From IMG/VR virus record IMGVR_UViG_3300037755_000726, positions 1 through 34,160 of that record: DNA of 34,160 nucleotides. One strand, given 5' to 3'. Below the pieces are notes generated by a model. That model did no database searches and was not told the origin of the DNA. It was given only the letters and a program-made list of their open reading frames with translations. The DNA comes from a virus. Taxonomy: Duplodnaviria > Caudoviricetes. The stretch's first letter is position 1. Each line of letters starts with the position of its first letter. A program made the position numbers and the translations under genes. This document shows, one piece after another, positions 1 through 30,823 of this stretch.

Positions 1-228
1 GAGGTGCTGGCGCAGCGCCGCCACCATGTCGCCGGCCCGGTGATGGTGGACATCACCTGTAAGCGCCAGAACGCCGCCAGCGATATCGACAACCGCATAA
101 AGGCATGCCTCGACCTGCTGGTGGAGATGGATCTGATCGACGACGACAAGAACGTGCATGAGGTTCGTGCGCGCTGGGGCGACGTGGCCGGCGCCGTCGT
201 GACCATCGTGCCGGGGGCGCTGGCATGA
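1..228 (+). CDS. rusA: RusA-like Holliday junction resolvase (5' truncated by window edge)
   Basis: DIDNRIKACLDLL...IDDDKNV matches the RusA DxDNxxKxxxD...DD motif; frame is open to base 1. Confidence 0.8.
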   Translation, partial: EVLAQRRHHVAGPVMVDITCKRQNAASDIDNRIKACLDLLVEMDLIDDDKNVHEVRARWGDVAGAVVTIVPGALA

Positions 229-755
229 GAGAAAATCTCTGGACAAAGGCGGCCGACGCCAAGCTGTGCCGTCACTTCGCTGAGGGCCTGAGCGCCAGCA
301 AGATCGGCGAGGCCATGGGCCTGACCAAGAACCAGTGCATTGGCCGGCTGTATCGCCTCGGCCTCAAACGGCCCGAGAAGCAGCCGGCGCACCTGAGGCC
401 CAAGGCGCAGCGGAAACCTGCGGGCGTCGCGAGAGGCCGGCAGCCGAAGGCAACGCTTCCTATGCCTGCCGAGCTCGCCCCGGCGCCGCCGGCGATAAAG
501 GTAAAGCGCGGCAGGCCGGCGGAGAACCGCCACACGCCAGCGCCGCATCCGTCGACCCGCGCCCCGCGCCCGTCCGATTCCATCTGGCGGCCGCGCACCT
601 GCCAATTTCCTGAGGGCGATCCGCGCGAGCCGGACTTTCACTTCTGCGACGCGCCTATCACGCCAGACGGCCGCCCCTACTGCGACGAACACGAGGCGCG
701 CTGCTACACCAAATGGGTTCCCAAGCAACTGAGAGACGCAGGAGAAGCGGCATGA
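225..755 (+). CDS. gcrA: GcrA-family cell-cycle regulator homologue
   Basis: N-terminal WT..D..L...FAEGLSASKIGEAMGLTKNQCIGRLYRLGL HTH; C-terminal CQFPEGDP.EPDFHFC......PYCDEH..CY typical of GcrA. Confidence 0.9.
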   Translation: MRENLWTKAADAKLCRHFAEGLSASKIGEAMGLTKNQCIGRLYRLGLKRPEKQPAHLRPKAQRKPAGVARGRQPKATLPMPAELAPAPPAIKVKRGRPAENRHTPAPHPSTRAPRPSDSIWRPRTCQFPEGDPREPDFHFCDAPITPDGRPYCDEHEARCYTKWVPKQLRDAGEAA

Positions 756-6396: not shown

Positions 6397-6641
6397 GCGG
6401 GAAGGCAGCGAGGCGGCACGGCCGGCGCCAGCCCTACACGGCACGAGGGGTCAAGAGACTTCCCTGCTGCCGGTGCGGAGAGCCAGCGCACGCATCATGG
6501 TCGGCCTGCGCAGACCAGAACCTCAGCCGTCCCGTCTGCCTCCAATGCGACATAGCCCTGAATGAACTGGCGCTACGCTTCATGCGTGACCCTGAGTGGC
6601 GGCAGAAGATGGCGATGTACCGCCGGGCAAGGCCGCAATGA
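6393..6641 (+). CDS. Small zinc-finger protein (CCRCG...C.....CLQC)
   Basis: ATGA overlap; two CxxC pairs; last gene of the left operon. Confidence 0.7.
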   Translation: MSGKAARRHGRRQPYTARGVKRLPCCRCGEPAHASWSACADQNLSRPVCLQCDIALNELALRFMRDPEWRQKMAMYRRARPQ

Positions 6642-6741
6642 AGGGCAACACGAGAGAGGGGGATGCGTCCCGTAGGCGCGCTGGCCAGCCGGGCGCGGGG
6701 CGGGTTTCGTTGCGGATGCGTAACAAATCCATGCCCCCTGG

Positions 6742-6966
6742 TAAGTCATTGATCTTGTGTCCATGCTGCAGTGCGATTTACCATAATGCTAATTATCGGC
6801 GCTTGGTTATGCAACGATATCAATCACTTAGGGTTATGCTGCGGTGCACACAGGGCAGAATGCCCTACCTGATGCGCCCTCGTGCTGCGGTGCGGGGTGG
6901 AAACGCTGGTGTCTCCTAGAATATGCAGGTATATCAACGGCTTGGTGTCATGCTGCGGTGCACCAT
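6742..6966. promoter_or_regulatory. Array of IHF-like boxes and RTGCTGCRGTGC repeats upstream of terminase (candidate packaging/late control site)
   Basis: WATCAANNNNTTR at 6818-6830 and 6932-6944, near match on - strand at 6742-6754; RTGCTGCRGTGC at 6763, 6836, 6882, 6950. Confidence 0.55.
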
Positions 6967-7189
6967 GGGAATCATATCCGGTTCGGCACACCCCCCGGCC
7001 TGGGGCACGGGTCCAGGGGTCCCACGCTCTCACATCACACTTCAAAACAGCGCCGGTGGTCGGGTTGTTTCGGTCTATCGGGCCATCCTGCCTACCGGTG
7101 GTTGCGCAATTCGGGTTCCGAGAGGGTCTCGGCCCGTGATTTTTGGCATTTTCGCATCCTGACGTTGAAAAAGGGAGTTTGAGGCCCCG

Positions 7190-7717
7190 ATGCCGAAGGT
7201 TCAGACCAACGTTTTGACGCCCCGTGAGGCTGAGGCTGTGCGGCTTCACGAGGAGAAGGGGCTGACGTGGGCCGAGATGGCGGCCGTTACGGGGATGGGG
7301 GCGGCGAATTGCCAGGACGCGTACCGGAAGGCGTCGCGGAAGCTGAAGCGGATCAAGGAGGGGGAGCAGAGCGGGGCTGTGCTTCACGGGCGCAGCGAGG
7401 GGGAGGTGAAGAAGCTGGGGGTGGTGACGGACCAGATGATCAGCGAGCGGATGGACCGCATGATCATCAAGGGGCTGTACTACCTGGAGCACCATCCGGA
7501 GATTTGGGCGCGGGCGGGCGTGCGGGAGCTCACGCAGGCGATCGCCAGCCTGACCGAGAAGCGGCAGCTGCTGCGCGGGGAGGCGACGAGCATTGTGAGG
7601 CATGAGGACGTGCGGACGTTGGACGATCTGACAAATCTGGTGAAGAACGAGCTCGAGCGGCGGCAGCGGGCGATCGACGCGGACCCGCTGGTGGGGAGGC
7701 GTGGTGATGAAGGCTGA
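7190..7717 (+). CDS. terS: Putative terminase small subunit with N-terminal sigma-region-4-like HTH
   Basis: LTPREAEAVRL..EKGLTWAEMAAVTG HTH; EKRQLLRGEATSIV is TerS-like; directly upstream of TerL. Confidence 0.7.
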   Translation: MPKVQTNVLTPREAEAVRLHEEKGLTWAEMAAVTGMGAANCQDAYRKASRKLKRIKEGEQSGAVLHGRSEGEVKKLGVVTDQMISERMDRMIIKGLYYLEHHPEIWARAGVRELTQAIASLTEKRQLLRGEATSIVRHEDVRTLDDLTNLVKNELERRQRAIDADPLVGRRGDEG

Positions 7718-9811: not shown

Positions 9812-9986
9812 CCCGACTGCCAGCGTGACGCGGGACGGACGGACCCCGCTCGAGGTCTTTGTCTGCCCGCTCTGCGAAACCCACCTGTGGCTGATCACCT
9901 CTGAGGAGCCCTCGCGGCCGATCTGCGCGTCATGCCACTGGACACCCGAGGATGGAGACGACGATGGCCCTGGCCGAAACCACTGA
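9798..9986 (+). CDS. Small zinc-ribbon protein (CPLC...CASC)
   Basis: AAGGAG 7 nt before GTG 9798; two CxxC. Confidence 0.55.
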   Translation: MDASSPTASVTRDGRTPLEVFVCPLCETHLWLITSEEPSRPICASCHWTPEDGDDDGPGRNH

Positions 9987-12339
9987 CGGCCGCGAGGTGC
10001 GCCGCACGCGCCGACGCCGCGACTTCAAGGTCGACAAGCAGGAGGTCGTCGACCGCGTGATGGAGTTTTTCGAGAAGGACGAGACCGACCGTTCCGTCGA
10101 GAAATCGCGCCGCCTGCAGCGCTACGCCAAGTTTCGCATGTGGACCGAGGGCAAGGATTGGCCCTGGTCCGATTCCTCCGACGTGGCGATGCCGGACATG
10201 ATGGAAAAGTCGCTGCGCATGCAGGACACGATTCACAATGCGGTGATGTCCTCCAGGCCAGTCATCGGCGCCAACGCTGTGCAGAAGTCCGATTCCCGCA
10301 AGGAGCGCTTCGTCGACCGGCTGATCGATTATCAGGTCTTCGTCGAGCAGCAGGGCGAGGAGCGCATCGGCGAGCTGGCGGAGGCCTTCGTCAACGACGG
10401 GGTGGCCTACGTGTTTCTGCCCTGGGTGAGCGAGACGCGCAAGGTGAGCGATGCCGAGCGATTCGACCCGATCCCGCCCGATCTGCTGCCGGCCGACTAC
10501 TTCCGCGCCATCCTGGGCCGGCGCTTCGGGCAGGCCGAGGCCTTGGCCAAAGGGGACGGCTGGGACTGGGACATCATGGCGGACGGCCGCGAGGTGCAGG
10601 TGGGCTTCTACACGACCCGCTCGGGTGAGGTCGAGATGGTCCGCCGCGAGCGCGTGACGGTCTACGAAGGCCCGCGCCTCATCCAGAAGGACTGGGATGA
10701 GGTGCTGTATCCGGCCAGGGCCGCGAACCTGCAACCCCCCGGCCCCTCCAATCCTCATGGTGCCGCGCACGTCATCCTGGTCGACTATCCGACCGTCGAT
10801 GAAATCCGAGCCCTGCAAGCCTCCGGCGTCTACAACCTGCTGACCGAGGAAGACCTCAACAAGCTGGAGGTCGCGGCCGACTCGTCGGGCGACAACCAGG
10901 AAATGCAGGAGCAGAAGGACACTCTGCAGGGCACCGATGGCTCGCATCAGCCGGACAAGAAGCGGATGGGCGGGCATCGCACGGTCACGCGCCTGCTGTG
11001 CTTCGACACCATGGACGTCGATGGCGACGGGCAGGCCGAGGATGTGGTCTGGTGGGTGATCCGGGAGACCAAGGCCCTCTGCCGGCGCAAGTTCATGACC
11101 GAGATTTTCCCGGCAGATCCGCCCCGCCGTCCGATCCGGCATCAGTCCTTCATGCCCGTCCGGGGCCGGGTGGCGGGAATCAGCCTCCTGGAGATGATGG
11201 AGGGCCTGCACGACGTGATGAAAATGGCGCTCGACCAGACGGTCGACGCCGGCACGCTGGCAAACGCGCCATTCGGCTTCTATCGGCCATCGGGAACCAT
11301 GAAGCCGGAAATCATGCGGATGAGCCCGGGCGAGCTCTACCCCATGCAGGACCCGCAGAGAGACGCCTTCTTCCCGCAGTTTCCGAACCGGGACCAGACC
11401 TTCGGATTCAACCTCGTCACCATGCTGAACGCCTTCGAGGAGCGCCTGACCACCGTGGGCGACCTCCAGCTTGGGCGGGTGCCGCAGGGCAAGGCCTCGG
11501 CGCTGCGGACCATGGGCGGCATGGCGATGATCCAGGGCCAGGGCGAGGCGCGCCCGGAGCGCATCCTCAGGCGCTTCTTCACGCTGCTGAGCGAAGTCTG
11601 GCAGGACATCCATGGCCTGAACAAGCACTTCATGCCGCAGGAAAAGCGCATCCGCGTCATCGGCATCAAGCAGGCCGGCGAGGACCCCTACCAGGAGATC
11701 CAGAAGGACGATGTGAGCGGCGCCTTCATCTTCGACTTCAAGGCCAACGTGCTCAATGCGTCGAAATTCGCCATGCAGAGCGCCATCGAGGCGCTGATGA
11801 GCACCTATGTGAGCGAGCTCGCCGTGCAGATGGGAATCATCGACCAGGAGGGCATCTACCGGCTGTTCCGCGAGTTCGGCTTCGCGCACGGGCAGGACCC
11901 GGACCAGTACCTGAAGGCGCCCAATCCCGAGGCGATGCGACCGCGCATCTTTGCCGAGGAGGCGCTGTCGATCATCATAGCCGGCGGGGTGCCGGATGGG
12001 GTGCCGGCGGAGGCTGGGGGCGCGATGGAGCATTTCCAGAAGCTGCAGGCCCTCATGCAGGAAGATTCGTTCGGCCTCCTCGGCGAGCAGCACCTGATCG
12101 TCTTCCGAGGCTACCTGGAGGAGCTGATGGAGAAGGCCGCGCAGCAGCAGGCCCTGATGCAGCAGGCCGCGGCCGCGGGCGCATTCCAGGCCGCGCAAGG
12201 CGGAGGAGCCCCCGGAGCGCCGGTCACCACCGGCCCGGCCGCGCCGCAATCGGCCGCCCCCCTGGGCCAGGGACAATTGAGCGACGAATCGCTGCCAGGA
12301 GCGGGCGGCGGCGGCGCGGCAGCCAATGGAGTTGGATGA
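9964..12339 (+). CDS. Portal protein (P22-like, ~790 aa)
   Basis: Size and position after TerL; DVDGDGQAED, GISLLEMMEGLHD..K..DQTVDAGTLAN, Q/A-rich C-terminal barrel; GGAG RBS before ATG 9964. Confidence 0.85.
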   Translation: MALAETTDGREVRRTRRRRDFKVDKQEVVDRVMEFFEKDETDRSVEKSRRLQRYAKFRMWTEGKDWPWSDSSDVAMPDMMEKSLRMQDTIHNAVMSSRPVIGANAVQKSDSRKERFVDRLIDYQVFVEQQGEERIGELAEAFVNDGVAYVFLPWVSETRKVSDAERFDPIPPDLLPADYFRAILGRRFGQAEALAKGDGWDWDIMADGREVQVGFYTTRSGEVEMVRRERVTVYEGPRLIQKDWDEVLYPARAANLQPPGPSNPHGAAHVILVDYPTVDEIRALQASGVYNLLTEEDLNKLEVAADSSGDNQEMQEQKDTLQGTDGSHQPDKKRMGGHRTVTRLLCFDTMDVDGDGQAEDVVWWVIRETKALCRRKFMTEIFPADPPRRPIRHQSFMPVRGRVAGISLLEMMEGLHDVMKMALDQTVDAGTLANAPFGFYRPSGTMKPEIMRMSPGELYPMQDPQRDAFFPQFPNRDQTFGFNLVTMLNAFEERLTTVGDLQLGRVPQGKASALRTMGGMAMIQGQGEARPERILRRFFTLLSEVWQDIHGLNKHFMPQEKRIRVIGIKQAGEDPYQEIQKDDVSGAFIFDFKANVLNASKFAMQSAIEALMSTYVSELAVQMGIIDQEGIYRLFREFGFAHGQDPDQYLKAPNPEAMRPRIFAEEALSIIIAGGVPDGVPAEAGGAMEHFQKLQALMQEDSFGLLGEQHLIVFRGYLEELMEKAAQQQALMQQAAAAGAFQAAQGGGAPGAPVTTGPAAPQSAAPLGQGQLSDESLPGAGGGGAAANGVG

Positions 12340-12731
12340 TGCTACCGAGCGCGCAAGAGCACTACCGGTCACGCGACGAACAGAGGTCGGTCGACCTCCA
12401 GGCACAAAGACGCCAGCTTACCCTGCTGGCCCAGGCCGAAGTGCTGGCCGGCAACATGACCCGGGTCCCGGAGTGGAACCTCTTTCTCTCCTACGTGTCG
12501 GCCGCCGCCGAGGAGTGCGAACGGCAGATCGATCTGCTGCGCACCAAGGTGTCGGACCCCATGGTGGTGCAGCATGACGAAGTGATGCGCCTGAAGGTGC
12601 TGCTCGAGGGCTGGCAGCAGCGCCGGCTCGCCTTCGATGCCGTCATGTCCCTTCCGAAAGACCTTCTGGACATGGGGCAGAGCGCCAAGGCGCTGCTGGA
12701 GCGCATGCCGGAACTGGAGAAAGCCTCTTGA
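12336..12731 (+). CDS. Hypothetical helical protein (post-portal)
   Basis: ATGA overlap with portal stop; MMLPSAQEH...ELEKAS. Confidence 0.75.
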   Translation: MMLPSAQEHYRSRDEQRSVDLQAQRRQLTLLAQAEVLAGNMTRVPEWNLFLSYVSAAAEECERQIDLLRTKVSDPMVVQHDEVMRLKVLLEGWQQRRLAFDAVMSLPKDLLDMGQSAKALLERMPELEKAS

Positions 12732-12913
12732 GCGCACGTCCCCGCATTCATGCCGCAGCGGACGCCCGGCCCCTGAAGCAGGTACCCTTGCCGCTGGCAG
12801 TCGCCATGGCGTTGGAAAGGTTTTTGGTTGACAGGAGGACAGGAAACCTGCAACTAAATATCCGTGACGGACAAATCCTTGGTCTAACCGTCGAGGAAAA
12901 GCTGTCCGTTTAA
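12728..12913 (+). CDS. Small DUF2292/YezD-like protein, candidate RNA-binding antiterminator
   Basis: TTG start after GGAG with TTGA overlap; C-terminal TGNLQLNIRDGQILGLTVEEKLSV fits the G-x-h-x-h-x-h-x-DG-x-h...EK pattern remembered for DUF2292. Confidence 0.6.
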   Translation: MSARPRIHAAADARPLKQVPLPLAVAMALERFLVDRRTGNLQLNIRDGQILGLTVEEKLSV

Positions 12914-12928
12914 GTCCAAGACCCAGTT

Positions 12929-12985
12929 AGGGCCATGGGACATCCCCAGCCCGCCACGGCATCGCCGCGGCGGGTTTTTGCGTTT
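12929..12985 (+). terminator. Antiterminator/terminator element, copy 1
   Basis: AGGGCCAT GGG ACATC CCC AGCCC overlapping hairpin CCCGCCACGGC-ATC-GCCGCGGCGGG followed by TTTTTGCGTTT. Confidence 0.8.
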
Positions 12986-13042
12986 GGGCGTAACAAGGCG
13001 GGCCGCCACCGTCAATTTGCGGGCGTAACACCGTGGGCCGCC
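12986..13042 (+). repeat. Direct repeat GGGCGTAACA-N4-GGGCCGCC x2 in the scaffold 5' UTR
   Basis: Copies at 12986-13007 and 13021-13042 (35-nt period), just upstream of the AAGGAG RBS. Confidence 0.75.
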
Positions 13043-13064
13043 GCCACGAAGGAGCAGAGTTCTT

Positions 13065-13850
13065 ATGGCAGACGATCTCGACGCGCCGATCGACGACGCG
13101 GAAGGCACCGATCACGAGGGCGATCCCATTGCGGGTCTGCGCTCAGCCGTTCAGGCCGAGCGCGGCAAGCGGCAGGAAGCCGAGCAACGCGAACGCGCCC
13201 TCGAAACCCAGCTCGCCGAACTTCGGGGGCGGGTCGACGGCATGGCCGCGAGCCAGACCAAGAAGGACACCGCTCAGCCGGAGATGACTTCCGCCCAGCT
13301 TCGACAGGCAGTCGAGGAGGGGCGCATCTCCGAGGACCAGGCCGAGGAAATCAAGTTCAAGCAGGCCGAGAAGCGCATCCGCGAGTCGGTCACCGCCGAG
13401 GTGCGCAGCGAGCATTCGGCCAAGGAGCTGGGGACCAGGGTCGGCGAGGAGATCGGCCGCTACAACGCCGTGGTGCCCGAAATCGGCGACAAGGCCTCGC
13501 CGCAGTTCAAGAAGCTGAAGACCGAGTTCGACTACCTGGTCGGACTGGGTCATGACCCCCGGGACGGGCGCACCGAGCTTCTTGCTGCCCGTGCTGCCTT
13601 CGGGCCCGTGCAGGCGCTCGAGAAGGCCGGCAAGCCGAAGGGCCGCGAGACCTGGCAGGACACCGGCGGCTCAGCCGAGGACGACCACGGATCGGGCGGC
13701 AAGGACGGCCCGCCGCGCGACATGCCGGCCAAGAACCGCGACTACTACCGCGATCAGATCGCCAAGGGCGCCTACAGCGGGTGGAAAGAGGTCGCGAAGG
13801 AATGGAGCTACAAGCCCAAGCACGGGCCGAAGAGCCGGAGGGCCGCATGA
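13065..13850 (+). CDS. Capsid scaffolding protein
   Basis: Acidic N-terminus, coiled coil (AVQAERGKRQEAE), position between portal and capsid. Confidence 0.75.
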   Translation: MADDLDAPIDDAEGTDHEGDPIAGLRSAVQAERGKRQEAEQRERALETQLAELRGRVDGMAASQTKKDTAQPEMTSAQLRQAVEEGRISEDQAEEIKFKQAEKRIRESVTAEVRSEHSAKELGTRVGEEIGRYNAVVPEIGDKASPQFKKLKTEFDYLVGLGHDPRDGRTELLAARAAFGPVQALEKAGKPKGRETWQDTGGSAEDDHGSGGKDGPPRDMPAKNRDYYRDQIAKGAYSGWKEVAKEWSYKPKHGPKSRRAA

Positions 13851-14874: not shown

Positions 14875-15795
14875 ATGCCGGTTCCTCACACAACTGACTC
14901 CTTCGGCGACCTTCTGGACATTCGCTTCCAGAAGATCTTCGATGACCAGTTTCCGCAGCTCAACGACATGCTGCCGGAGCTGTTCTCATTCGAGCCCGAC
15001 AACGGGCGCATCGACATGCGCTTCTCGGAGGTATCGGGCTACGGCGATATCCCGGAGTTCGGCGGCTCGGTCGTCTACCAGTCGGCCGCGCAGGGCTACG
15101 ACACCACCATCACGCCGGTGGAGTTCGCCTCCGGTGTCCAGGTGGAGCGGCGCCTTTTCGACACGGACCAGTTCTCCATCATGAACCAGCGCCCGTCCGG
15201 CCTCGCCCGGTCGGCGCAGCGCACGCGCCAGAAGCACGGCGCGCGCCCGTTCAACAACGCCTTCTCGGTGGACCAGTACTTCTACAACAACTCCGAGAGC
15301 GTTGCGATGTGCAGCGCCAGCCACACCACCACGGTGCAGAGCGCCTCGACCGCCAGCGGCTTCGACAACCTGATCACCACGGCGCTCAGCGCCACCGCTC
15401 TCTCGGCGGCCCGTATCCAGATGCGCGGCTTCCGAGACGCCGCGGCCAACCGCATCGACGTCGAGCCTGACGAGATCCTCTTCCCGCCCGACCTCTACGA
15501 GGTGGCCTTCGAGATCAACAGCTCGATGGGCAAGGTCGACACCGCGGAGAACAACCGCAACGTCCACTTCGGCCGCTACACGATGAAGGAGTGGAACTAC
15601 CTGAACGACGCCAACAACTGGTTCCTGATGGACGGAAGCCTGCGCAACGAGTCGCTGAAGTGGTTCGACTCCGTGCCGGTCGAGTTCGCCATGGCGGAAG
15701 ACATGGACACCCTGGTGGCCAAGTGGCGCCTGTACACGGTCTACGGCAACGGTCACCGCGACTGGAGATTCATTCTCGGCGCCAACGTTTCCTGA
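14875..15795 (+). CDS. Major capsid protein (HK97 fold, Mu gpT-like)
   Basis: GYGDIPEFGG.V.Y, LARSAQRTRQK, LSATALSAARIQM..FRD, PPDL, YLNDANNWFL, DWRFILG. Confidence 0.85.
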   Translation: MPVPHTTDSFGDLLDIRFQKIFDDQFPQLNDMLPELFSFEPDNGRIDMRFSEVSGYGDIPEFGGSVVYQSAAQGYDTTITPVEFASGVQVERRLFDTDQFSIMNQRPSGLARSAQRTRQKHGARPFNNAFSVDQYFYNNSESVAMCSASHTTTVQSASTASGFDNLITTALSATALSAARIQMRGFRDAAANRIDVEPDEILFPPDLYEVAFEINSSMGKVDTAENNRNVHFGRYTMKEWNYLNDANNWFLMDGSLRNESLKWFDSVPVEFAMAEDMDTLVAKWRLYTVYGNGHRDWRFILGANVS

Positions 15796-25716: not shown

Positions 25717-26124
25717 ATGGCAGTAGATTCACGCCTGAAACGATTCACCATGATGCAGATGGCTGGCGAGTGCTGTGGCATTCCTCCTATGGTCCGGTTC
25801 ACGACTGGCCCGCTAGGCCCCGCTGCGCGCCTTATGGCCCTGTGGCTCTACACAGGCATCGCGGCCGATCCGCCGGCGGAGGAGGACGACGCGTCCGCAG
25901 CGCGCCGAATGCGCCAGATGCGGGCGATCTTGAACAAGAGGAACCGCAGGCGGTATAATCGCTGCACTCCTAGGGCCATCGGACAGACCGAGCCCCGGCA
26001 AGGCGGATCCCCGCCGGCCGGGGCTTTTGCTTTGAGGCGACCATGGGCACTGCTACGCAACCTACTGACTACTCGGATTTATACACCGATTTGCAGAATC
26101 GCATCCGCCAGCAGACCGGCGTGA
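25717..26124 (+). CDS. Small virion-associated protein (true C-terminus uncertain)
   Basis: MAVDSRLKR...WLYTGIAA looks protein-like up to RNRRR (~25953); the remainder crosses element copy 2 and overlaps the next gene by 82 nt. Confidence 0.55.
   Translation: MAVDSRLKRFTMMQMAGECCGIPPMVRFTTGPLGPAARLMALWLYTGIAADPPAEEDDASAARRMRQMRAILNKRNRRRYNRCTPRAIGQTEPRQGGSPPAGAFALRRPWALLRNLLTTRIYTPICRIASASRPA
25930..25959 (+). promoter_or_regulatory. Candidate sigma70 promoter TTGAAC-N18-TATAAT
   Basis: Perfect -10 box in GC-rich DNA, 12 nt upstream of element copy 2. Confidence 0.45.
25972..26033 (+). terminator. Antiterminator/terminator element, copy 2
   Basis: AGGGCCAT CGG ACAGA CCG AGCCC overlapping AGCCCCGGC-AA-GGCGG-ATCC-CCGCC-G-GCCGGGGCT followed by TTTGCTTT. 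Confidence 0.8.
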
Positions 26125-27065
26125 CTGCGACCCAGAATATCGCCAAAAGGGCCATCAATACCGCCCTGCACGACATGCATATCGGCTTCTCCGAGAAGCT
26201 GCCCTGGGCTGAGCGGACTGCCGAACTTGTTACGCAGCCGGAATATACGACCGGCACCGTGACGATCACGCAAGGGTCCACGACCCTGACCGGCACAGAT
26301 ACGCTGTGGGACACGGCCAACGCCTTCGGGGTGGACAACGTGCGCGTCGGCGGCAAGCTGGTCCTCGCCGGCGGCAAGGAGGTCTACGAGGTCTCCGCGG
26401 TAGCCAGCGACACCTCTCTGACACTCGCCACCCGCTACATCGGCGAGGACTTGGCGGCCGAGACCTACGTCTACTTCGAGGACGAATACGCGCTGGCGAG
26501 CGACTTCCTGCGCCCCGTCTCCTTCCGGTCCTTCGACATAAACAACGAGGTGGAGCTGATCGGGCGGACCGAGTTCCGCATGCGCTACCCGCGCAACAAG
26601 ACCACCGGCAAGCCCCGCGTCGCCACCCTGCTGGACAAGCCATTTTCCGGCAGCACCACGCCTGTCAGGAAAGTGCAGCTTCACCAGCCGCCCAATCAGG
26701 CCTTCATCCTGCCCTACGCCTACATCACGTCCAACCTGGCCGTCACGGCGGCCGGCGCCGCGGCGACGCAGCTGGTCAACGACACCGACGAACCAATCGT
26801 GCCGCTGCGCGCGCGGCATGCCATTGTGTACCACGCCCTCTACCACCACTACCGCGACCTGAAAGACGACACCCGCTCGCAGGAAGCCAAGGCGGAGTAT
26901 ACCGACATCATCACGCGCCTCGTCGGCGACCAGGAGATCGGCACCAGCCGGCCGCAGATCCGGCCCCGCGTCGGGCCCTACGCGAGGAGAGCCAAGGAGC
27001 CCTATGGGCGCAGGGGTGGGCGGCGCTTCATCACTGGAGATGCCTTCGACGAGAACCGCGACTGA
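26043..27065 (+). CDS. Head-to-tail adaptor (tail tubular A/P22 gp4-like) with inserted beta domain
   Basis: YSDLYTDLQNRI...AKRAINTALHDM...LPWAE, EYALASDF, DEPIVP...HAIVYHAL; insertion YTTGTVTITQGSTTLTGTDTLW. Confidence 0.7.
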   Translation: MGTATQPTDYSDLYTDLQNRIRQQTGVTATQNIAKRAINTALHDMHIGFSEKLPWAERTAELVTQPEYTTGTVTITQGSTTLTGTDTLWDTANAFGVDNVRVGGKLVLAGGKEVYEVSAVASDTSLTLATRYIGEDLAAETYVYFEDEYALASDFLRPVSFRSFDINNEVELIGRTEFRMRYPRNKTTGKPRVATLLDKPFSGSTTPVRKVQLHQPPNQAFILPYAYITSNLAVTAAGAAATQLVNDTDEPIVPLRARHAIVYHALYHHYRDLKDDTRSQEAKAEYTDIITRLVGDQEIGTSRPQIRPRVGPYARRAKEPYGRRGGRRFITGDAFDENRD

Positions 27066-30344: not shown

Positions 30345-30743
30345 ATGGCAGCGGTCCGGCTCGCCACCAACGCCGATGGGCCGCGCATCGGCGAGCTGCT
30401 GACCGGCATGGGATTTAGAGACGCTCTAGACTGGTCGGACATTGCGCCCTACTGGCTGGTCGCGGAGGAGGAGGGGCGCATTATCGGGGCTGTGCAGACC
30501 GTGCTGGGAAAGCCGGTAGGTTGGATGGAGCTGCTCTCCATCGATCCGGGCCTCTCGCACAAGCGCAAGGCCATGGTGGTCAGGGCCTTGATCTATCGGG
30601 GGATGGCGCTCCTGCAGGGGGCGGGGGCGCAGATGGTCATGTTCTCGGTCCCCCACGAGCTGCGCAGCTACCGGGCCGTGCTGGAGCGCCGCGGCGGGGT
30701 TGTGGTCGGCGCTGGCAATATCATGGCAAAGCGGCTAATCTAG
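30345..30743 (+). CDS. GNAT-fold protein
   Basis: VRLATNADGPRIGELL, WLVAEEEGRIIGAV, LSIDP; lies between fibre and ejection genes. Confidence 0.7.
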   Translation: MAAVRLATNADGPRIGELLTGMGFRDALDWSDIAPYWLVAEEEGRIIGAVQTVLGKPVGWMELLSIDPGLSHKRKAMVVRALIYRGMALLQGAGAQMVMFSVPHELRSYRAVLERRGGVVVGAGNIMAKRLI

Positions 30744-30752
30744 CCGCGACAG

Positions 30753-30812
30753 AGGGTCATCTGGCATTCAGAGCCCGCCTCCCCATCCCCGGGGCGGCGG
30801 GCTTTTTGCGTT
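30753..30812 (+). terminator. Antiterminator/terminator element, copy 3
   Basis: AGGGTCAT CTG GCATT CAG AGCCC overlapping AGCCCGCC-T-CCCC-ATCCCC-GGGG-C-GGCGGGCT followed by TTTTGCGTT. Confidence 0.8.
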
Positions 30813-30823
30813 GGAGACGCCAA

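What the first reader, a model, noticed from the sequence alone, without database searches (positions are those of the whole stretch)
12728..12985. DUF2292/YezD-like micro-protein directly upstream of switch copy 1: candidate trans-acting antiterminator
Seen: a 61-aa ORF with a weak TTG start coupled to the previous gene ends 15 nt before copy 1. Its C-terminus (TGNLQLNIRDGQILGLTVEEKLSV) resembles the uncharacterised DUF2292/YezD pattern as I remember it. Inference: it is the last gene expressed before the first terminator, so its product could bind all three elements and license downstream transcription as a delay or threshold switch. This would be a minimal protein-plus-RNA late-gene control, and no Q-like antiterminator is visible in the window.
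Basis: inference. Interest (0 to 1): 0.85.

Follow-up and report, generated by a model that had tools for sequence, protein, structure and literature searches.

The report
Tiny phage protein gating three terminators
A 61-amino-acid gene of a sediment phage sits just before the first of three copies of a conserved short hairpin motif that overlaps a predicted transcription stop signal, and its product likely binds the RNA hairpin to let the virus-building genes be read, a switch for which my searches found no published description.

Summary
The ORF (12728-12913, TTG start) is real: TTGA-coupled, with a Shine-Dalgarno, a synonymous-biased substitution pattern and 59 phmmer relatives of similar size. 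It misses the Pfam DUF2292 cut-off and is only remotely DUF2292-like (hhalign E 2e-5).

Three elements (12930, 25973, 30754) share a 23-nt bulged hairpin with compensatory changes, whose last 4 nt are the 5' arm of a predicted intrinsic terminator.

31 of 39 distinct gene loci carry the element just after the stop codon, but 29 of these built the model. Among 24 relatives picked by another gene, 4 have both gene and element and 20 have neither; the capsid tree reduces this to about two events. Some gene-less relatives hold a Com-like zinc finger and a different leader in the same slot. True DUF2292/YezD genes in bacteria are followed by a similar hairpin (5 of 13). The protein is predicted to be a homodimer.

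Best reading: a LicT/RAT-like protein-RNA antiterminator with a new protein and RNA (about 0.65). Binding is untested.

The parts
12728..12913 (+). Small ORF, 61 aa, TTG start; remotely DUF2292/YezD/OscA-like; predicted alpha-beta-beta homodimer; candidate RNA-binding antiterminator
12339..12731 (+). Upstream portal-adjacent ORF whose TGA overlaps the TTG start (translational coupling inferred)
12930..12952 (+). Element 1, 5' module: outer stem P1 (12930-33 with 12949-52), 2-nt bulge ending in an invariant A, inner stem P2 (12936-39 with 12945-48), 5-nt loop
12949..12985 (+). Element 1, predicted intrinsic terminator (hairpin 12949-12975 plus T tract); shares 4 nt with P1; precedes the scaffold-like and capsid genes
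12996..13048 (+). Second conserved motif in the leader of the 13065 gene: two GGGCCGCC(A/G)CC-containing repeats; role unknown
25930..25959 (+). Sigma70-like site TTGAAC-18-TATAAT, 13 nt before element 2
25973..26033 (+). Element 2 (bulged hairpin plus predicted terminator) before the SU10-type adaptor gene at 26043; lies inside the 3' extension of ORF 25717-26124
30713..30741 (+). Weaker sigma70-like site TGGCAA-17-TAATCT before element 3
   Evidence: own scoring, shuffle p 0.007
30754..30812 (+). Element 3 (bulged hairpin plus predicted terminator) before the gene block starting near 30821

Best explanation
The 61-aa protein is likely an RNA-binding antiterminator: as a predicted homodimer it would bind the 23-nt bulged hairpin in the nascent RNA and keep its last 4 nt from pairing into the overlapping predicted terminator. 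Shown: gene, elements, covariation, overlap and linkage. Predicted: the hairpin folds first as the RNA is made, the terminator wins by 2.4-11.5 kcal/mol without protein, and the protein dimerises through its first strand. Inferred: the protein is made from the terminase-portal transcript that stops at element 1, accumulates, opens the scaffold and capsid genes, and acts in trans on the separately promoted leaders before the adaptor/tail genes (element 2) and the last gene block (element 3). This would give a delayed, coordinated late switch.
For: RNA geometry: P1's 3' arm is the terminator's 5' arm in all three copies. Prefixes ending after P1 fold into P1+P2, and forcing P1 costs 2.4, 4.2 and 11.5 kcal/mol. 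In 23 hand-picked copies 97.8% of cells pair, 5 of 8 pairs show two-sided changes and 0/500 shuffles reach this; RNAalifold returns the same structure. The bulged A is invariant, as expected of a binding site. Linkage: 31 of 39 distinct gene loci have a model hit next to the stop codon (29 are training rows). In 24 relatives chosen by the adaptor protein, the same 4 have gene and full element and 20 have neither (2 of the 4 were not in the training set). Complete record G019, nested in the gene-bearing clade, has no match for gene or element and shows no terminator at the slot. Slot swap: Com-like zinc fingers followed by a different stem and a terminator-like hairpin in L085, L087 and L103 (PHROG 6417 E 5.5e-7 for L085, PHROG 13819 E 6.7e-5 for L087, no Com-type hit for L103). 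Mu Com binds an RNA hairpin (PMC6483171). True DUF2292/YezD genes are followed by a like hairpin, overlapping a terminator-like stem in L118 and L137. Homodimer: ipSAE 0.70 vs best control 0.01, runs agree in 100% of contacts, pLDDT at least 88; the mark was reached by 20 of 30 solved homodimers and 1 of 23 single chains. N40, N44 (N/H) and R/K46 alternate with hydrophobic V/I41, L43, I/V45, which suggests an exposed polar sheet face (inference). G001 has one gene and four further element copies elsewhere, three of them distinct.
Against: No binding or read-through data. The capsid tree needs only 2 changes for gene presence, so the phage co-occurrence is about two events, and gene and element are physically adjacent. 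Related phages have one copy only. G073 has a full element behind a near-consensus promoter but no detectable gene. In G001 the gene-adjacent element is a variant that differs from the trans copies. 3 of 39 gene loci have no adjacent element (L017, L040, L041), and L033 has the hairpin without a T tract. 8 of 13 DUF2292 loci show no clear hairpin, and in L113, L115 and L122 it is not followed by a terminator. The protein is only weakly basic (net +3).
Confidence: 0.65

Rival explanations
1. The protein binds the same RNA but promotes termination. The hairpin forms first and gives default read-through; the protein, once abundant, binds P2 or opens P1 and limits structural-gene output.
For: P1+P2 folds first in transcript prefixes, and the terminator wins by only 2.4-4.2 kcal/mol in copies 1 and 2. 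P2 is compatible with the terminator fold.
Against: The invariant A is bulged only when P1 is paired. A repressor made just ahead of the capsid genes would shut them early (inference). Copy 3 favours the terminator by 11.5 kcal/mol.
Confidence: 0.1
2. The element is a switch read by a host factor or another phage protein, or it is a kinetic attenuator that needs no protein. The small gene is a co-inherited neighbour with another role.
For: Orphan element in G073 without the gene. Only about two independent events on the capsid tree. Three gene loci without an adjacent element. The record is incomplete and encodes a GcrA-like regulator.
Against: The pairing recurs in distant bacterial DUF2292 loci. 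Joint absence in G019. Com-like slot swap with a changed leader.
Confidence: 0.15
3. The protein binds the hairpin but acts mainly after transcription (translation or RNA stability), as Mu Com does, and the overlap with the terminator is secondary.
For: DUF2292 hairpins in L113, L115 and L122, and the L033 copy, lack a following terminator. The Com-like proteins in the same slot resemble a translational activator (PMC6483171).
Against: In the window all three copies overlap a terminator-like stem, and in copy 1 the start codon lies about 110 nt downstream of the hairpin.
Confidence: 0.1

Closest known systems
BglG/SacY/LicT antiterminators with RAT hairpins (PMC5393181, passages read)
   Same: A small dimeric RNA-binding unit (CAT is about 55 aa) and a short hairpin whose 3' end is shared with the 5' arm of an intrinsic terminator; protein binding would hold the hairpin.
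   Different: No CAT or PRD family hit; stand-alone 61 aa with no sensor domain. The RNA is 23 nt with one 2-nt bulge and a 4-nt overlap, against 29-33 nt, two internal loops and a 6-10 nt overlap. It gates phage structural genes rather than sugar operons.
DUF2292 / YezD / OscA (PF10055, NF033785)
   Same: Size, a helix followed by G-x-V-x-I/L-x-I-x-D-G/S and a second strand; hhalign P 76.9, E 2e-5 over 48 columns; a similar downstream hairpin at 5 of 13 loci. oscA forms a transcriptional unit with the downstream sulfate-binding gene (PMC3596284, passages read).
   Different: Below both cut-offs. The RNA has a (C/U/A)A bulge rather than the GA/A internal loop, and models R1 and R2 do not hit the DUF2292 hairpins. 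No molecular function was found in print for the family.
Phage Mu Com with the mom leader (PMC6483171, abstract and section 18 read)
   Same: A tiny phage protein encoded next to its RNA hairpin target that frees downstream expression; Com-like genes occupy the same slot in relatives.
   Different: Com is a zinc finger acting on translation; the window's protein has no cysteine and its element overlaps a terminator.
pan RNA motif (RF01749; PMC2864571, passages and supplement hits read)
   Same: A short stem with conserved bulged A, often tandem, proposed to bind a dimeric protein.
   Different: The Rfam model does not hit the window or the DUF2292 hairpins; pan precedes pantothenate genes.
Lambda Q and N phage antiterminators (recalled, no paper read)
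   Same: A phage protein that opens late genes by terminator read-through.
   Different: Q and N modify the polymerase processively. Here each terminator carries its own competing hairpin, which points to local action.

Membership tests
DUF2292 (PF10055) | Score above the curated cut-off (22 bits) | tested here: not met
   No hit at E<=0.1 for the query; 4 of 59 aligned members at E<=1, best 0.046; window-like gene in G001 and G003 not hit
DUF2292 (PF10055) | Remote profile homology to a true member | tested here: inconclusive
   hhalign P 76.9, E 2.1e-5, 48 columns, against one member; ESM Atlas top cluster 25% DUF2292 at score 0.81, a lead only
DUF2292 (PF10055) | Followed by a 4-bp inner hairpin with a 5' bulged A inside an outer stem (trait seen here, not part of the Pfam definition) | tested here: met
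   Window family; DUF2292 loci 5 of 13; strict descriptor 2 of 10 vs 0.04 expected
OscA (NF033785) | NCBIfam model match | tested here: not met
   Query no hit; 2 of 59 members, best E 0.0076
BglG/LicT CAT-RAT | CAT RNA-binding domain and PRD domains | tested here: not met
   No Pfam hit for the query and no CAT/PRD family among member hits; 61 aa only
BglG/LicT CAT-RAT | Antiterminator hairpin sharing its 3' end with an intrinsic terminator | tested here: met
   4-nt overlap in all three copies, predicted structures
BglG/LicT CAT-RAT | 29-33-nt RAT with two conserved internal loops | tested here: not met
   23 nt, one 2-nt bulge; no Rfam hit
BglG/LicT CAT-RAT | Dimer binds the RNA and raises read-through | not testable with these tools
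   Dimer predicted only
pan RNA motif (RF01749) | Covariance-model match | tested here: not met
Mu Com zinc finger | C4 zinc finger | tested here: not met
   No cysteine in the window protein; Com-like genes replace it in relatives

The most novel reading that the evidence does not exclude
DUF2292-like microproteins are a widespread, undescribed class of dimeric RNA-binding antiterminators with a new small fold and a 23-nt target. Phages use them, interchangeably with Com-like zinc fingers, as a plug-in timer: one 61-aa gene plus a promoter-hairpin-terminator cassette that can be placed before any gene block. Orphan cassettes in bacterial chromosomes (G073) could report the presence of such a phage or mobile protein.
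Probability: 0.45. Interest if true: 0.88.

Novelty: new variant of a known kind. Interest (0 to 1): 0.74.

Why it matters
It would give a first molecular function to the DUF2292/YezD/OscA group and add a late-gene control for phages that needs neither a Q/N-type factor nor a phage polymerase. A 61-aa protein and a 60-nt cassette, with three natural variants in one genome, make the idea directly testable by EMSA and in vitro transcription, and could serve as a very compact genetic switch. Other agents of this scan reached the same idea on other genomes, so within the scan this is a further, diverged instance rather than a first sighting. New here are the sub-cut-off protein family, the different bulge, the Com-like slot swap and the joint loss in G019.

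Tried and rejected
Pfam, NCBIfam and PHROG membership of the query: no hit.
PDB by sequence: 0 hits. By fold: nothing at E<=0.001 or Z>=5, which is inconclusive for so small a model.
Rfam, whole window and element: none over threshold. The pan model was not met. Rhodopirellula-1 rows seen in the Weinberg 2010 supplement look different.
An exact DNA pattern scan of viral contigs gave 3 matches that read as chance, with no terminator or gene context.
GenBank phages: no real relative. DUF2292 query in viral contigs: none. PF10055 in 15 gene-less relatives: 0.
P0003 and P0005 (long repeat proteins) and P0033 and P0042 (over 100 aa) were left out of A2. L057, L061 and L062 were dropped as false matches, L016 and L056 as cut at the contig end, and 15 loci as duplicates.
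R1 hits in gene-less alphaproteobacteria: 9 genomes besides G001. I viewed 8; 7 are plain terminators that R2 does not hit.
The idea of a general promoter before gene-adjacent copies was rejected: most score like shuffles.
No RNA holder listed.
The first fold of L137 missed the element and was redone; its minimum-energy fold keeps the antiterminator form.
Literature searches (DUF2292; oscA; yezD; HmuP; Com; pan; antiterminator+prophage; RAT; PF10055; oscA+sbp) found no description of this protein-RNA pair. The library lacks most subscription papers, Viti 2009 on oscA was seen only as a citation, and bioRxiv supplements were closed.

Full report
Setting. The window is a linear virus record, about 69% complete, of a podovirus-like phage. 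It encodes a GcrA-like gene, a primase-helicase, terminase, an SU10-type portal (9952-12339), major capsid (14875-15795) and an SU10-type adaptor (26043-27065). The finding concerns the slot between the portal-adjacent ORF (12339-12731) and the gene at 13065, which I call scaffold-like from its position only.

The gene is real. ORF 12728-12913 starts with TTG overlapping the upstream TGA and has GGAG 8 nt upstream. Its closest relative (L058) keeps the TTG start and differs mostly at third positions (19/9/33; 25 synonymous, 18 non-synonymous codons). phmmer over 1.84 billion representatives gave 61 hits, 59 of them 46-111 aa; a profile search gave 127. The core is P22, F32, D-[RK]-[RK]-T-G-N-[VI]-x-L-N-[IV]-[RK]-D-G-x-I-L-G-x-x-x-E-E. 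AlphaFold gives a helix and two strands (pLDDT 75). ESMFold2 supports a homodimer through the first strand: score 0.70, best control 0.01, runs agree in 100% of contacts, pLDDT at least 88; the mark was met by 20 of 30 solved homodimers and 1 of 23 single chains.

DUF2292. The query has no Pfam or NCBIfam hit. 4 of 59 members touch PF10055 (best E 0.046) and 2 touch OscA (best E 0.0076). hhalign against one true member gives P 76.9, E 2e-5. It is therefore a remote relative, not a member.

The RNA. The three copies read GGGY-CA-UNNG-RCANN-CNNA-GCCC: an outer stem P1, a 2-nt bulge and an inner stem P2 whose middle pairs differ between copies yet stay paired. The closing GCCC is also the 5' arm of a hairpin followed by a T tract. 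Transcript prefixes fold into P1+P2; in the full element the terminator wins by 2.4, 4.2 and 11.5 kcal/mol. On 23 copies that I picked as well-fitting, 97.8% of cells pair, 5 of 8 pairs have two-sided changes, 0 of 500 shuffles reach this, and RNAalifold finds the same fold. The less tidy 30-row MAFFT alignment gave weaker support (83.1% paired). My scan finds 5 terminator-like sites on the + strand; copies 1-3 are the strongest, copy 1 is the first, and the other two lie inside genes. Rfam has no match.

Linkage. Three collection scans gave 59 loci. After dropping 3 false matches, 2 cut loci and 15 duplicates, 39 remain. 31 have a model hit (E<=0.01) beside the stop codon, 29 of them training rows. 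4 have variant hairpin-terminators by eye, 1 has the hairpin without a T tract, and 3 have none adjacent (L040 has one about 600 nt upstream, behind a promoter-like site). As a less circular test I took 24 virus records found with the adaptor protein. 4 have the gene, the same 4 have the full element, and 20 have neither, including all 6 near-complete ones. Two of the 4 were training rows, and about 12 of the 20 were seen to cover the slot. The capsid tree puts all gene-bearing phages in one clade with one nested exception (2 changes), so this is about one gain and one loss. The loss is informative: complete record G019 has no gene or element match and shows no terminator at the slot.

Slot swap. 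In L085, L087 and L103 the slot holds a C4 zinc-ribbon ORF followed by a different stem and a terminator-like hairpin (in L087 the T tract is weak and my scan missed it). PHROGs calls L085 'translational regulator' (E 5.5e-7) and L087 gpCom (E 6.7e-5); L103 has no such hit. Mu Com binds an RNA hairpin beside its target (PMC6483171, abstract and section 18). Five relatives hold another protein of about 90 aa and no terminator there. L106 has a terminator and no small gene.

True DUF2292 genes. Of 13 loci (two are unannotated tblastn hits), 5 show GCY/UCU-GA-YNNG-loop-CNNR-A-(G/A)GC just downstream. In the Niallia YezD locus L118 the inner stem is the same UCGG/CCGA and the outer 3' arm is the terminator's 5' arm; L137 is alike. 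One locus is partial, one is cut by the contig end, one gene is truncated and five show nothing clear. The descriptor was widened after I saw L113-L115.

Related phages carry one copy only (12 gene-bearing virus records searched whole, all fragments of 18-56%), and none has the element before the adaptor. Copies 2 and 3 lie about 13 nt behind sigma70-like sites, as do the stand-alone copies in L040 and G073, whereas most gene-adjacent copies have none (my own scoring). Copy 2 lies within the 3' extension of ORF 25717-26124, whose homologue in L089 stops earlier, so ribosomes could mask it on read-through RNA (inference). Copies 2 and 3 are thus best read as lineage-specific promoter-leader cassettes controlled in trans. 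A bacterial parallel is G001: one gene and four further copies, although its gene-adjacent element is a different variant. Against strict dependence, G073 has a full element behind TTGACA-17-TATAAG and no detectable gene.

Mechanism and comparison. The layout matches LicT/RAT antitermination (PMC5393181, passages), with a different protein, a shorter RNA and no sensor domain. The gene lies upstream of the first terminator, so its own synthesis would not depend on it. Accumulation and dimerisation would then delay capsid, tail and later blocks relative to terminase and portal (inference). I put 0.65 on antitermination, 0.15 on another factor or none, 0.1 on promoted termination and 0.1 on post-transcriptional action. 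No Q-like family was hit in the 34 and 29 ORFs scanned, but the record is incomplete and encodes GcrA.

Novelty. Ten literature searches found no description of the pair (listed under Tried and rejected). Earlier agents of this scan proposed the same switch on other genomes; these are unchecked AI notes and not support. Verdict: a new variant of a known kind, interest 0.74.

Noticed in passing
window 12996-13048: Second conserved leader motif, two GGGCCGCC(A/G)CC repeats between terminator 1 and the 13065 start; a pattern match in 14 of 40 loci, one of them spurious. Possibly a translational operator of the scaffold-like gene.
   Followed up: partly
L085:2503-2800, L087:3038-3320, L103:2614-2900: Com-like zinc-ribbon genes with their own leader and terminator-like hairpin in the same slot; a candidate second antitermination pair.
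   Followed up: partly
L086:2415-2711, L093:3736-4002, L097:4042-4317, L099:2516-2785, L105:2666-2959: A third small protein family (about 90 aa, no Pfam or PHROG hit) occupies the slot in relatives that have no terminator there.
   Followed up: partly
G073:C1:4404670-4405050 (L126, L140): Orphan cassette: near-consensus promoter, full element and a short low-GC3 ORF of no known family in a chromosome without the small gene.
   Followed up: partly
L059:10001-18300 (G001): The small gene lies near a cluster that reads like type II secretion genes (by eye, not scanned); an element copy sits between that cluster and a predicted secreted-protein gene, and three more lie elsewhere in the genome.
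   Followed up: partly
L113, L114, L115, L122: DUF2292 genes followed by tandem hairpins and a porin-like gene (read by eye); L115 also has a c-di-AMP riboswitch upstream.
   Followed up: no
window 225-755: Phage-encoded GcrA-like regulator (Pfam E 1e-18), a possible second layer of transcription control and a hint of an alphaproteobacterial host.
   Followed up: no
window 6640-7190: Largely non-coding stretch before the small terminase-like gene, with a 42-nt imperfect direct repeat (6808 and 6922); candidate late promoter or packaging region.
   Followed up: no
window 12728-12913: The small gene has low GC3 (0.62 against 0.84-0.93 for neighbours), which fits low translation or a different origin.
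   Followed up: no
L017, L040, L041: Family members outside the capsid slot, followed directly by a ParB-like or helix-turn-helix-like gene (by eye) with no adjacent element.
   Followed up: no
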